NCBI RefSeq assembly: GCF_054482595.1
Contig: NZ_CM137008.1
Strand: one strand, 5' to 3'
Length of the DNA: 64,000 nucleotides
Shown here: positions 51,001-54,000 of the stretch, piece after piece
Layout of the letters: each line of letters starts with the position of its first letter
How positions within the stretch are numbered: the stretch's first letter is position 1
Program-made: the position numbers

Positions 51001-54000
51001 CGAAAGCGCAGTTAAGCAGTGTGGGCGAAGGAGACAAAAAGTCGTGGTTTTGTTCGGAATTTGTCACTGATGCATTTGCCAAAGCCGGGCATCCGCTTAC
51101 GCTGGCGCAATCGGGCTGGATTAGCCCTGCCGATCTGATGCATATGCGTATTGGTGATGTCTCTGCGTTTAAGCCAGAAACGCAGTTACAGTATGTTGGG
51201 CACCTGAAGCCAGGGATTTATATCAAGGCGGGTCGCTTTGTTGGGCTGACCCGGTGATAAAGTAAATGCCTTATCCGCCTTAAGGTATGAGGGGGGTTGT
51301 AGGCATGATAAGACGCGCCAGCGTCGCATCAGGCGTTGAGCACCATTGCCGGATGCGGCGTAAACGCCTTATCCGGCCTACAAAAAACGTGCAAATTCAA
51401 AATGTTGAAATATATCCTTCTGGCCTGTTTTGCGTTTGTTTCTGTCTCAAGACGGGTTACTGCCCCAAACTACTGCAATCCTTGTTTGGGTAAAATTTAC
51501 CTGCCGTATCGGGCGCTAATACTTTGGTCGGCGCACCGGTATCCGGATTAGCCTCAAGCGTAAAGTGACCTTCCACTGACAGTAACACCGGTTTTTCACT
51601 GCTGCCGCGAGCAGCCAGATACCCTCGTTCCAGCTCTGCGTTATTCGCCACCATGAAACGTTTTCCGGTCGCGCAATCAGTGAAGGTCGCCGCATCAGCC
51701 ATATAAAAATACATGCCCCGCAGGGTCATCGGCGTCATGGGTAAACTGGATTGTGCCGGTTCCAGCGTATAGTTGAACTGCGATTCAATCGGATTGCCTT
51801 CACGATCGAGCATCTCCAGCGCATCGCCTTTCGCCCGATAATATGACTTTTCACCTTTGCTGTCGGTTAATACCAGCTTGTCAGCGGTTCGCGCCCATGT
51901 ACCGTAGGAAGCGAAGGAGGAAGGTTCTTCACGAGCACCGAGATAACGCTCATTCATCACCCATGTTCCGTCTTTTTCGAGGAACAGAGAGGTTTCGATT
52001 CCTTCGCAATCGGCACACGGCAGCACGCCGCGCCAACTTTGCGGCATCGGTTTCAGTTCGGCTGCCTGCGCCGGAGAAAGCGTATCGACTTCGGCCCGAT
52101 TATTACAACCCATCAGAGTAAAGAGGCTGATTACAGCCATCGCTGTCACTATCGCTTTTTTCACCATCCATTCCTTCTTTTTATTCCCGACCGCTGCGCA
52201 CTTTGCCGCGCATCGCCTTCACGCTTGATTTTTGTGCTTTCGATGCCAGCCTGCGCTCTTTCGATGCACGGGTGGGCCGCGTGGGTCGTCGGGCTTTTTG
52301 TTCTGTTGTTAATTCTTTAATCACAGCCACCAGCCGGGCCAGAGCTGCTTCGCGGTTCAGTTCCTGACTGCGGTATTCCTGTGCCTTAATGACAATCACG
52401 CCATCACTGCTGATCAAATGATGGCTGGCGGCGAGCAGACGCTCTTTGTAATACTCTGGCAGGCTGGACGCCCGAATGTCAAAACGCAGATGAATAGCCG
52501 TTGAGGTCTTATTAACATGCTGCCCGCCCGCGCCCTGCGCACGAATGGCGGTGATCTCAAGCTCACCATCGGGAATAGCAACATGTCGGGAAATCACAAT
52601 CATGAAGGTTGTTGCCAGGCGGTTAAGTTCACTTCCAGATTATTCTTATCATCTGATAACCAGATAACACCATCCTGAATCGTTGCCTGCAGCGTCATGG
52701 TACGATCGGCAAAGGCGCTCACTTTCGCCAGCTGCTCGTCGTCCAGATACCAGACAGAAAGATTGGCAAACTGCGCACATTTGCTCTGATTTTGCTGCCA
52801 CCAGATTTGCGCCGCCCGACTATTATAGGTAAACAGCGCCACTTCTGCGGCCTGGGTGCAGGCTTTCTTAATTCGTCGCTCATCCGGCAGCCCCAGCTCA
52901 ATCCACAAATCAATGCCCAGGTGATCGTTACGCAGCCACGCTTCCGGCTCATCATCGGCACACAAACCACGGGTAAATTGCAGACGTTCATCGGCATATT
53001 TCAGCCACGCCAGCAAGCGCAGCATCATACGCTCCTGGGTTTCTGAAGGATGGCGCGCCAGCGTCAGAGAGGCATCGAGAAACTGGTTACGGTCGAGATC
53101 GGCCACATTAACCGTCGCTTTATAAATTGTCGCTTTAAGCGCCATAAGAAAACTCCTTTCGAATCAGGAGGCCATTGTAACGGAATACGTGCAGTTGCGG
53201 CGCTGATATTGCAGAAATGAGTGTGGTATAGTCACCTTGCGAAACAGAGTTTATCTTCGTAGGCTTAGACTTGCATCCACGGTTAAGTCAGAGTGCTGAC
53301 AGGAGGGCATGTGGAAAAATATTGTGAGTTAATACGCAAGCGGTACGCGGAAATCGCCAGCGGAGACTTAGGATACGTTCCGGACGCGCTGGGCTGCGTT
53401 TTGAAAGTGCTGAATGAAATGGCTGCCGACGACGCCCTTTCTGAGGCTGTCAGGGAAAAAGCAGCATACGCTGCGGCAAACTTACTGGTGAGCGATTATG
53501 TCAATGAATGATACGTATCAACCAATCAATTGTGATGATTACGATAATCTTGAGCTCGCCTGCCAGCATCATTTAATGCTGACACTTGAGCTGAAAGATG
53601 GCGAAAAATTGCAGGCAAAAGCCAGCGATTTAGTCTCCCGCAAAAATGTGGAGTATCTGGTCGTCGAGGCCGCTGGCGAAACCCGTGAGCTACGTCTGGA
53701 TAAAATTACCAGCTTTAGCCACCCGGAAATCGGTACGGTGGTGGTAAGCGAATCCTGATTGACTTTTGCCGGATGCGACGTTTGATGCGTCTTATCCGGC
53801 TTTCACTTAACTAAGCGTTTTCTGCCAGACAAAACTTACGCCCTTCTCACCTTCAGCCACACCTTCTTGCGTCACAAATACCCCTGCCGCCGCAATCAGC
53901 GTTTCGCCATAAAACAGCAGTGGCGTGGTGTCACGTAGCCACGGCGGCACGCCCAGCTCCTGCCAGATTTTCTTCAGCTTACGTCCGCCGTTGCGACCGA

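What the first reader, a model, noticed from the sequence alone, without database searches (positions are those of the whole stretch)
51265..51390. REP/BIME repeat cluster between yaeF and nlpE, and a single REP after rof
Typical E. coli REP palindromic units (GCCGGATGCGGCG...CTTATCCGGCCTAC) occur in convergent or 3' intergenic regions at 51265-51390 and 53766-53803. These are housekeeping features that confirm an enterobacterial core-genome context.
Basis: partly seen in the sequence, partly recalled or inferred. Interest (0 to 1): 0.15.

Follow-up and report, generated by a model that had tools for sequence, protein, structure and literature searches.

The report
Known E. coli REP elements REP16, REP15
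These are two already-catalogued copies of E. coli's commonest short palindromic repeat, sitting between gene pairs that point at each other, where they most likely form RNA hairpins marking the ends of both messages; they are ordinary.

Summary
The yaeF–nlpE spacer (window 51258–51456) is base-for-base identical to E. coli K-12 MG1655 and is the element catalogued there as REP16. The hairpin between rof and tilS (53768–53804) is REP15.

REP16 is more than "a REP cluster". It has:
- a half-unit remnant (51262–51282);
- an intact y unit (51299–51334);
- a 13-nt linker;
- an intact inverted z2 unit (51348–51381);
- a BIME "L" linker with an IHF-like core (51382–51418);
- the stump of a third y unit (51419–51427).

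This makes it a decayed chimeric ("atypical") BIME that reaches past the stated end.

The y–linker–z2 pair matches Rfam RF02564 (naRNA4) at 92.8 bits against a threshold of 59.5. That family is simply one such REP pair, and its proposed nucleoid role was withdrawn in a 2026 preprint.

A table reproduced in that preprint places overlapping 3′ ends of the convergent K-12 transcripts exactly on the z2 hairpin and on REP15. The best mechanism is therefore a two-way hairpin that forms and protects mRNA 3′ ends.

REP15 is fixed (5,417 of 5,426 genomes). REP16 is mosaic (window type in about 1,920 genomes), and 694 genomes carry IS621 in the unit the window has lost.

Nothing here is new. Interest is low.

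The parts
51262..51282 (+). Half-unit remnant: the 3' arm of a z-type unit (GTAAATGCCTTATCCGCCTTA). Its left arm is missing and CTAC has degraded to CTTA.
   Evidence: It is a direct repeat of 51360–51380 at 86% identity. It has no hairpin of its own beyond chance: 51258–51300 folds with z = −0.8. It is absent from type-B strains.
51299..51334 (+). Intact y-type palindromic unit of REP16, with GTAG at 51299–51302 on the + strand. It has one substitution against the reference (A for C at 51305), which weakens one stem pair.
   Evidence: one internal difference from the published y reference. (Rfam alignment, one non-canonical pair flagged). (inverted repeat with the z unit).
51335..51347 (.). 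13-nt inner linker GTTGAGCACCATT joining the ends of y and z that lack GTAG. It corresponds to the 'l' linker of the Y–l–Z2 unit of REP325.
   Evidence: Rfam alignment: AAUGGUGCUCAAC against consensus AAcGGUGCCGACU.
51348..51381 (-). Intact z2-type palindromic unit of REP16. GTAG is on the − strand, so CTAC lies at 51378–51381 on the + strand.
   Evidence: With T51347 it is 35/35 identical to the published REP reference. It is 31/31 identical to the Z2 hairpin of the naRNA4 consensus. Its 34–35 nt length is nearer z2 (37) than z1 (29). The overlapping 3' ends of convergent transcripts at K-12 216053–216093 map to window 51343–51383.
51302..51378 (-). Full-length match to Rfam RF02564 (naRNA4), that is, the y–l–z2 pair read in the nlpE-sense direction.
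   Evidence: 92.8 bits against a gathering score of 59.5, E = 1.5e-16, model positions 1–77 of 77. The + strand scores 47.3 bits, below threshold.
51382..51418 (.). BIME 'L'-type long linker following CTAC, with an IHF-like core ATTCAAAATGTTG at 51395–51407.
   Evidence: It aligns with the linker of z–L–y units at this locus in other strains and at the unrelated livF–ugpB locus. The core has one mismatch to WATCAANNNNTTR. The L linker and its IHF association are described.
51419..51427 (+). Stump (TCTGGCCTG) of a third, right-hand y unit. The other 22 nt of that hairpin are deleted in the window and in K-12.
   Evidence: Alignments with types B and C and the full array: GTAGGCCTG[ATAAGCGCAGCGCATCAGGCAA]TTTTGCG against TCTGGCCTG–TTTTGCG.
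53768..53804 (.). REP15: a solitary REP hairpin (stem 53768–53800) between the rof stop codon (53756–53758, 9 nt away) and the tilS stop codon (53807–53809, 6 nt away). It lacks the GTAG/CTAC tetranucleotide, having TTTC/GAAA instead.
   Evidence: z = −6.3 and −5.2. It is named REP15 and carries overlapping convergent 3' ends at K-12 213630–213673, which is window 53763–53806. It is conserved in 5,417 of 5,426 genomes. It differs from K-12 by 1 nt, at 53767.
50433..51257 (+). yaeF, the convergent gene on the left of REP16. Its stop codon lies 41 nt before the y unit.
51457..52167 (-). nlpE, the convergent gene on the right of REP16. Its stop codon lies 75 nt from the z2 unit.
53498..53758 (+). 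rof, the convergent gene on the left of REP15.
53807..55105 (-). tilS, the convergent gene on the right of REP15.

Best explanation
Identity (near certain). These are the catalogued E. coli repetitive extragenic palindromic elements REP16 (yaeF/nlpE) and REP15 (rof/tilS).

REP16 is a partly decayed chimeric BIME. It has one intact y unit and one intact inverted z2 unit joined by a short 'l' linker. On one side is a half-unit remnant. On the other side are an 'L' linker with an IHF-like core and the stump of a deleted third unit. REP15 is a lone unit that has lost its GTAG tag.

Mechanism (inferred, with indirect experimental support from K-12). Each element lies in the shared 3' region of two convergent genes, so it is transcribed from both sides. 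Being palindromic, it folds into a stable hairpin in either transcript. The hairpin stops or pauses RNA polymerase without a U-tract, so termination would be partly Rho-dependent. It also blocks 3'-to-5' exonucleases. Both mRNAs therefore end at, and are capped by, the hairpin, and the two transcription units are insulated from each other.

REP15 begins 9 nt after the rof stop codon and 6 nt after the tilS stop codon. It may therefore also damp translation termination of both genes, as reported for REPs less than 16 nt from a stop codon.

Origin (established knowledge). REP units are non-autonomous elements processed by the REP-associated tyrosine transposase TnpA_REP/RAYT, which needs GTAG and the stem bulge. 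REP16's two intact units keep both features, and REP15 does not. This fits REP16 being mosaic between strains and REP15 being frozen.
For: Identity:
- The spacer is 199/199 identical to K-12 MG1655 215980–216178.
- The K-12 names REP16 and REP15 are given, with their flanking genes.
- The units match published REP references 35/35, and with one internal substitution.
- The repeat is multicopy in every genome.
- The Rfam Y–l–Z2 model scores 92.8 bits.
- The L linker is shared with the unrelated livF–ugpB BIME.
- BIME definitions are, and unit sizes.

Mechanism:
- Both strands fold into strong hairpins (−42.9/−48 and −22/−18.5 kcal/mol, z from −3.8 to −6.3).
- The table reproduced in the 2026 preprint lists overlapping 3' ends of the convergent transcripts arfB:nlpE versus yaeF on the z2 hairpin, and rof:yaeP versus tilS on REP15, in both log and stationary phase.
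- The same preprint shows REP325 acting as a partly Rho-dependent terminator and mRNA stabiliser. It also shows that convergent pairs with REPs are more highly expressed.
- No intrinsic-terminator-like site (hairpin plus U-tract) is found at either element.
- The rule about closeness to a stop codon is summarised, and the distances are read directly.

Origin:
- REP16 is polymorphic, whereas REP15 is fixed.
Against: - No transcript data exist for this strain. The K-12 3'-end evidence is second-hand: a supplementary table in a preprint, whose main text calls the source study 'sequence-based'.
- The same preprint found no genome-wide difference in mRNA half-life for genes with terminal REPs, so the stabiliser half of the model is context-dependent.
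- About two thirds of E. coli genomes manage with a different REP16 architecture. Any function of the exact window arrangement is therefore dispensable or tunable.
- In isolation, the whole y–l–z2 segment prefers one long y:z hairpin rather than two separate hairpins, so the RNA structure in vivo is not settled.
- The translational effect on rof and tilS is extrapolated from a distance rule and was not tested for these genes.
Confidence: 0.8

Rival explanations
1. The y–l–z2 pair is a gene for a nucleoid-associated noncoding RNA of the naRNA4 type. In this reading the RNA binds HU and bridges cruciform-forming REP DNA to condense the chromosome.
For: There is a full-length match to Rfam RF02564 above the gathering score, on the nlpE-sense strand. 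The 2015 study reported HU binding, nucleoid decondensation on REP325 deletion, and REP–REP contacts. HU does bind naRNA4 with a Kd of about 32 nM.
Against: The Rfam model was built from REP325's Y–l–Z2 units, so any such REP pair will score. The match shows family resemblance, not function. The 2026 follow-up, which includes the senior author of the 2015 study, found no effect of REP325 deletion or naRNA4 overexpression on nucleoid volume. It also found no stable HU–cruciform–RNA ternary complex and no REP–REP long-range contacts. The promoter scan of 51100–54000 found no sigma-70-like site in the yaeF–nlpE spacer, so no dedicated promoter is evident. The window has one unit, not six.
Confidence: 0.04
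2. The elements act mainly at the DNA level. REP16 would be a protein-binding site, with IHF on the L linker and DNA gyrase or Pol I on the y/z2 pair. It would relieve or insulate the positive supercoiling that builds up between convergent transcription units.
For: The L linker has an IHF-like core one mismatch from consensus. It is conserved in z–L–y units at unrelated loci. The published roles of BIMEs in binding IHF, Pol I and gyrase, and as topological insulators, are summarised. The position between convergent genes is where positive supercoils accumulate (established knowledge).
Against: In the window the L linker has lost its partner y unit. Only one y–z2 pair is present, whereas describes BIME-2 as occurring in multiple tandem copies. 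The architecture is freely variable between strains. REP15 has neither an L linker nor a partner unit. No binding data could be obtained here.
Confidence: 0.1
3. The elements have no host function. They would be selfish or neutral relics of RAYT-driven REP/REPIN spread, tolerated in a spacer where insertions do no harm. The 3' ends seen there would be an incidental by-product of any stable hairpin.
For: REP16 shows decay: a half unit, a 22-nt hairpin deletion and a stem substitution. It occurs in at least four alternative architectures plus IS621-disrupted forms. The y–l–z2 segment folds as one long REPIN-like hairpin. There is no genome-wide half-life effect of REPs.
Against: REP15 is retained in 5,417 of 5,426 genomes despite lacking the GTAG needed for RAYT action. 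Every REP16 variant examined keeps at least one intact hairpin between the two genes. Convergent pairs with REPs are expressed more highly than those without. This rival overlaps with the best explanation on origin and differs only on present-day effect.
Confidence: 0.06

Closest known systems
E. coli K-12 REP16 (nlpE/yaeF) and REP15 (rof/tilS), annotated REP elements
   Same: Same locus and same flanking genes. REP16 is 199/199 identical across the whole spacer. REP15 differs at one base just outside the stem.
   Different: Nothing of substance. The host strain is not K-12 but is close to XH990 (6 mismatches in 50 kb), and it carries a T6SS island elsewhere in the window.
REP325 / naRNA4 (Rfam RF02564), the Y–l–Z2 repeat between yjdM and yjdN
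   Same: Same two-hairpin y–linker–z2 unit. The z2 hairpin is 31/31 identical to the consensus, the linker is related, and the score is 92.8 bits.
   Different: REP325 has six tandem units (12 palindromic units) between tandem genes. Here there is one unit between convergent genes, fused to an L linker.
BIME-1 (z–L–y with an IHF site; also called RIB/RIP elements, a name taken from memory)
   Same: The CTAC end of the z unit is followed by the conserved L linker with an IHF-like core. Other strains at this locus, and the livF–ugpB locus, have the complete z–L–y form.
   Different: In the window the partner y unit is deleted. The z unit looks like z2 rather than the z1 that defines BIME-1.
REPINs (inverted REP doublets mobilised by RAYTs; Bertels and Rainey)
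   Same: Two REPs in inverted orientation with a short spacer, predicted to fold into one long hairpin. REPINs are described in the abstracts listed.
   Different: REPINs were defined in Pseudomonas with a different REP sequence. No RAYT gene lies in this window, judged from the XH990 annotation that covers window 1–54500; window 54501–64000 was not checked. Mobility of this copy is untested.
REP-type bidirectional terminators between convergent genes
   Same: Both elements are listed among 78 REPs that coincide with 306 bidirectional terminators.
   Different: They lack the A-tract/U-tract flanks of classical bidirectional intrinsic terminators. The table counts 1 A and 2 U for REP16 and 5 A and 1 U for REP15, and no terminator-like site is found at either element.

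Membership tests
E. coli REP / palindromic unit | Imperfect palindrome of 30–40 nt able to form a stem-loop | tested here: met
   The y unit is 36 nt, the z unit 34 nt and REP15 33–37 nt. Inverted-repeat arms are 13–14 nt at 85–86% complementarity, and the folds are strong.
E. coli REP / palindromic unit | Conserved GTAG tetranucleotide 5' of the stem foot | tested here: met
   Met for the y unit (GTAG 51299–51302, + strand) and the z unit (CTAC 51378–51381, so GTAG on the − strand). Not met for REP15, which has TTTC/GAAA at that position. The requirement is described.
E. coli REP / palindromic unit | [quoted passage not shown] | tested here: met
   A 2x2 internal loop sits at the expected place in the REP15 fold, in the folds of the K-12 z2 and REP15 hairpins, and in the Rfam consensus structure line for both hairpins.
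E. coli REP / palindromic unit | Extragenic location and high copy number in the genome | tested here: met
   Both elements lie between stop codons of convergent genes. There are 8–57 matching places per genome, a capped count, in 5,425 of 5,426 genomes.
BIME-2 | y and z2 units in inverse orientation, separated by a short linker, with s/l/r flanking motifs | tested here: met
   The window has y (+), a 13-nt linker and z2 (−). The linker aligns with the 'l' linker of REP325. The z2 call rests on identity to the naRNA4 Z2 consensus and on length. It was not checked against a z1 reference.
BIME-2 | Occurs as multiple tandem copies | tested here: not met
   Only one y–z2 pair is present.
BIME-1 | z1 and y units separated by the long L linker carrying an IHF site; single copy | tested here: not met
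   The L linker and an IHF-like core are present. However, the partner y unit is deleted in the window, and the z unit looks like z2, not z1.
Atypical BIME (chimera of BIME-1 and BIME-2 motifs) | Combination of y, z1/z2, and L, S, s, l, r motifs from both classes | tested here: met
   The window has y–l–z2 followed by L, and the complete y–l–z2–L–y form is seen in strain 1919D3.
Rfam RF02564 naRNA4 | Covariance-model score at or above the curated gathering score | tested here: met
   92.8 bits against 59.5, full length, on the minus strand.
Rfam RF02564 naRNA4 | Expressed as a discrete RNA that associates with HU and the nucleoid | not testable with these tools
   No expression or binding data exist for this locus. 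The function itself is disputed.
Intrinsic (Rho-independent) terminator | GC-rich hairpin followed immediately by a U-tract | tested here: not met
   No terminator-like site was called at 51299–51381 or 53768–53804 on either strand. The 3' flanks contain 1–2 U.
Translation-damping REPs (Liang, Rudd and Deutscher 2015 class) | REP hairpin begins fewer than 16 nt after the stop codon of the upstream gene | tested here: met
   REP15 lies 9 nt after the rof stop codon and 6 nt after the tilS stop codon. REP16 lies 41 nt from the yaeF stop and 75 nt from the nlpE stop, so it does not qualify. The rule is summarised. The effect on these genes is not testable here.

The most novel reading that the evidence does not exclude
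The exact make-up of the yaeF–nlpE BIME may act as a strain-specific regulatory dial and as an integration-site switch. Different subsets of the y–l–z2–L–y array would set different 3'-end and readthrough levels for nlpE, the Cpx envelope-stress sensor lipoprotein, and for yaeF. The 22-nt hairpin deletion in the K-12/window allele also removes the exact IS621 bridge-RNA target (ATCAGGCCTAC) that is occupied in 694 other genomes. That would make this allele refractory to IS621 at this site.
Probability: 0.2. Interest if true: 0.3.

Novelty: already known. Interest (0 to 1): 0.1.

Why it matters
For annotation it matters little. These are catalogued K-12 elements (REP16 and REP15), and their presence only confirms an E. 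coli backbone.

Three points are worth carrying forward:
- An automated Rfam pass will label 51302–51378 as the sRNA gene "naRNA4". That label should be read as "one y–l–z2 REP pair", not as evidence of a nucleoid RNA, given the 2026 retraction of that function.
- The two elements make a neat natural contrast. One is a frozen, GTAG-less solitary REP squeezed 6–9 nt from two stop codons. The other is a mosaic BIME that differs between lineages. This contrast could be used to test the terminator/stabiliser and translation-damping models.
- The locus is a recurrent IS621 landing site, which bears on predicting where bridge-RNA recombinases insert naturally.

Tried and rejected
- A fixed-loop REP consensus search found only REP15, because the loop lengths differ. 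A two-half-site scan replaced it.
- The current RefSeq K-12 record lists no repeat features in this stretch. The REP numbers therefore had to come from a paper supplement.
- The Liang/Rudd/Deutscher 2015 paper could not be opened by DOI or by PMC id. Its rule is cited second-hand. A text search in PMC5009743 found nothing.
- The original bidirectional-terminator study was not among the papers returned by the search. I believe it is Ju, Li and Liu 2019, but that is from memory.
- RepRanger's supplements do not mention these genes.
- A sensitive BLAST with the 51-nt L-plus-stump segment returned only the locus itself. It was underpowered for a short query against 28 Gb, so it did not show family membership of the L linker. 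Direct alignment with the livF–ugpB BIME did show it.
- Intrinsic terminator: rejected, because there is no U-tract.
- A protein-coding reading of the ORFs that cross the repeats (51186–51329 −, 51287–51493 +, 51336–51551 +): rejected, because they are made of repeat sequence and overlap nlpE.
- The z1-versus-z2 call could not be checked against a z1 reference sequence, because figures are not held. It rests on identity to the REP325 Z2 consensus and on unit length.
- The census of type B is imprecise, because the 80%-coverage count (3,723) includes type-A genomes joined from two pieces.
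Full report

Yes. 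The ORF layout and BLAST against 5,426 complete E. coli genomes place the finding between yaeF (+ strand, ending at 51257) and nlpE (− strand, ending at 51457). The second site lies between rof (+, stop codon 53756–53758) and tilS (−, stop codon 53807–53809). The window is reverse-complemented relative to K-12.

The 199-bp yaeF–nlpE spacer is identical at every base to K-12 MG1655 215980–216178. The 48-bp rof–tilS spacer differs from K-12 at one base, 53767. The window as a whole is nearly identical to strain XH990, with 6 mismatches in 50 kb.

REP units are present and are not chance:
- T51347 plus 51348–51381 is 35/35 identical to a REP reference sequence quoted by Durrant et al..
- 51299–51334, read on the minus strand, differs from their y-type reference at one internal base.
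- 53768–53804 matches a degenerate consensus with two mismatches, against none in 100 shuffles.
- A looser scan of the entire window finds only these three good units. The 50 shuffles gave 0 or 1 hit each, mean about 0.2.

**2. What exactly is there?**

Reading left to right:
- After the yaeF stop codon comes a half-unit remnant (51262–51282). It is 86% identical to the right arm of the z unit, and its left arm is missing.
- Next comes 16 nt of G-rich spacer.
- Then an intact y unit (51299–51334) with GTAG on the + strand. One substitution at 51305 spoils one stem pair.
- Then a 13-nt linker (51335–51347).
- Then an intact z unit in inverse orientation (51348–51381, ending in CTAC).
- Then a long linker (51382–51418) with an IHF-like core, ATTCAAAATGTTG, at 51395–51407.
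- Last comes TCTGGCCTG (51419–51427). This is what is left of a third unit, which other strains have in full (GTAGGCCTGATAAGCGCAGCGCATCAGGC).

The long linker is the family "L" linker. It aligns with the linker of complete z–L–y units at this locus in other strains and at the unrelated livF–ugpB spacer.

The published definitions are as follows. BIME-1 is z1–L–y. BIME-2 is y and z2 with short linkers, in tandem copies. Atypical BIMEs are chimeras of the two. By these definitions the window element is a decayed atypical BIME.

I call the z unit z2 for two reasons. It is identical at 31/31 positions to the Z2 hairpin of the naRNA4 consensus, which was built from REP325, described as alternating Z2 and Y units. 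It is also 34–35 nt long, closer to z2 (37 nt) than to z1 (29 nt). I could not compare it with a z1 reference sequence.

The element after rof is a single hairpin (stem 53768–53800). It lacks the GTAG/CTAC tag and has TTTC instead.

**3. Names in the literature**

A supplementary table of Harris et al. 2026 labels the K-12 hairpin at 216053–216093 as REP16. The affected genes are arfB:nlpE:yaeF:yaeQ. It labels the hairpin at 213630–213673 as REP15. The affected genes are rof:yaeP:ldcC:tilS:yaeR. Converted to window coordinates these are 51343–51383 (the z2 unit) and 53763–53806 (the rof–tilS unit). Both features are therefore already catalogued.

**4. The Rfam match**

A scan against Rfam gave one family. 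RF02564 (naRNA4, "nucleoid-associated noncoding RNA 4") matches 51302–51378 on the minus strand at 92.8 bits. The gathering score is 59.5, the match covers the full model length, and E = 1.5e-16. The plus strand scores 47.3 bits, and REP15 scores about 25 bits.

naRNA4 is one Y–l–Z2 unit of the six-unit REP325. The model is therefore in practice a model of a BIME-2-type REP pair, and the match confirms the anatomy rather than revealing a gene.

The proposed function was HU-dependent nucleoid condensation. A preprint that includes the senior author of the 2015 study has re-examined it. It found no effect of REP325 deletion or overexpression on nucleoid volume, no stable ternary complex, and no REP–REP long-range contacts. 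It found instead a local role as a partly Rho-dependent terminator and mRNA stabiliser.

**5. How it most likely works**

What is shown here:
- Both elements lie in the common 3' region of convergent genes.
- They fold strongly on both strands: −42.9 and −48 kcal/mol for the REP16 core, −22 and −18.5 kcal/mol for REP15, with z from −3.8 to −6.3. The flanking spacer does not fold better than shuffles.
- Neither has a U-tract, so they are not classical intrinsic terminators.

What is shown in K-12 by others:
- Overlapping 3' ends of the convergent transcripts coincide with the z2 hairpin and with REP15, in both log and stationary phase.
- Convergent gene pairs separated by a REP are expressed more highly than those without one.

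What I infer: the hairpins act in both directions as 3'-end-forming and 3'-end-protecting structures, and they insulate the two transcription units from each other.

REP15 starts 9 nt after the rof stop codon and 6 nt after the tilS stop codon. This is inside the under-16-nt range in which REPs were reported to stall terminating ribosomes and lower translation (summarising Liang et al. 2015, which I could not open). REP16 is too far from either stop codon (41 and 75 nt).

One caveat is that the preprint found no general half-life effect of terminal REPs, so the size of any effect depends on context. A second caveat is that, in isolation, the y–l–z2 segment prefers one long REPIN-like hairpin over two separate ones.

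**6. Population picture**

REP15 is essentially fixed and single-copy at its locus: 5,417 of 5,426 genomes cover at least 80% of a 181-nt query.

REP16 is not fixed. The window/K-12 architecture (type A) is found in 1,918 genomes with the 301-nt query, and in 1,953 with the 51-nt L-plus-stump query. Other forms are:
- Type B, which lacks the remnant and the left y unit but has the full z–L–y. It covers most of the rest, but its count of 3,723 includes type-A genomes joined from two pieces.
- Type C, which lacks z2 and the start of L: 127 genomes.
- A form with IS621 inserted: 694 genomes.

I predicted a full array (remnant, then y–l–z2–L–y) and searched for it. It exists in strain 1919D3 as a single 322-bp piece at 98.1% identity. 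Relative to that array, type A lacks 22 nt, type C 47 nt and type B about 67 nt. This fits decay by different deletions from a larger array, although 1919D3 could instead be a recombinant.

The difference in behaviour fits the biochemistry. TnpA_REP needs GTAG and the stem bulge. REP16's intact units have both features, and REP15 has no GTAG.

**7. IS621**

In strains CFS3313, RM6927, MIN6 and M11 the gene next to yaeF is an IS621 transposase. The junctions read GTAG|IS621|GCCTGATAAG. On the other strand this is the published natural IS621 target, ATCAGGCCTAC, with its CT core.

The target lies in the third unit, which the window has lost. The window's y and z2 units each differ from the target by one base: ATCATGCCTAC and ATCCGGCCTAC. 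This is known biology, since IS621 was described as REP-targeting. It does, however, mark this spacer as a recurrent landing site.

**8. Verdict**

The additions are:
- a precise anatomy that extends to 51427;
- the K-12 names;
- an explanation of the Rfam naRNA4 label and why it should not be over-read;
- second-hand experimental support for a two-way 3'-end function;
- the contrast between a fixed REP15 and a mosaic, IS621-prone REP16.

Novelty: already known. Interest: about 0.1.

Noticed in passing
window 51419–51427; loci L005, L006, L008, L009: IS621, the bridge-RNA recombinase insertion sequence, is inserted at this very spacer in 694 of 5,426 complete E. coli genomes. It sits exactly at its published target ATCAGGCCTAC, in the right-hand y unit. 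The window/K-12 allele has deleted that unit, so it has no exact target at this spacer. Its two intact units are each one base off the target.
   Followed up: yes
L011 (strain 1919D3) 147–392: A complete remnant–y–l–z2–L–y array, predicted from the partial types, exists in at least one genome. The three common architectures each equal this array minus one segment (22, 47 or about 67 nt). Whether it is ancestral or recombinant is not known.
   Followed up: partly
yaeF in L003, L005, L006, L008, L011, L013 (window equivalent 50433–51257): yaeF is annotated as a frameshifted pseudogene in six of the non-K-12-type strains fetched (S3, CFS3313, RM6927, MIN6, 1919D3, 2c3). It is intact in the window, in XH990 and in K-12. 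This may be a lineage-specific loss that travels with the spacer type.
   Followed up: no
window 1 to about 29000: By the annotation of the near-identical strain XH990, the left half of the window is a type VI secretion island (Rhs, VgrG, Hcp, tssA–M) beside a tRNA-Asp gene. tssH is marked with an internal stop and the VasL-domain gene is marked frameshifted.
   Followed up: no
window 42105, 42229, 43395, 43415, 43418: Five of the six differences between the window and strain XH990 over 50 kb cluster in or just beside the 16S rRNA gene of the rrn operon. This suggests variation between rRNA operon copies, gene conversion, or an assembly difference.
   Followed up: no
window 53768–53804: REP15 has no GTAG/CTAC tag, which published biochemistry says TnpA_REP requires. 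Yet it is kept in 5,417 of 5,426 genomes and is wedged 9 and 6 nt from the stop codons of rof and tilS. It looks like a frozen, possibly co-opted copy.
   Followed up: partly
window 51290–51395, both strands: Folded alone, the y–l–z2 segment prefers a single long hairpin in which y pairs with z2 (−42.9 and −48 kcal/mol). The Rfam consensus instead has two separate hairpins. Which form occurs in vivo probably depends on co-transcriptional folding.
   Followed up: no
window 14996–15029 and 55890–55919: Two weak REP-like hits from the loose two-half-site scan. By the XH990 annotation the first lies inside tssK. The second lies beyond the annotated stretches I fetched, so its context was not checked. 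Their quality is at the level seen in shuffled sequence, so they are probably chance.
   Followed up: partly
L012 (strain FDAARGOS_1291, livF–ugpB spacer) 395–520: An unrelated locus carries a z–L–y unit whose z is identical to the window's z and whose L linker is closely related. This shows that the stretch after the window's z unit is family sequence rather than unique spacer.
   Followed up: yes
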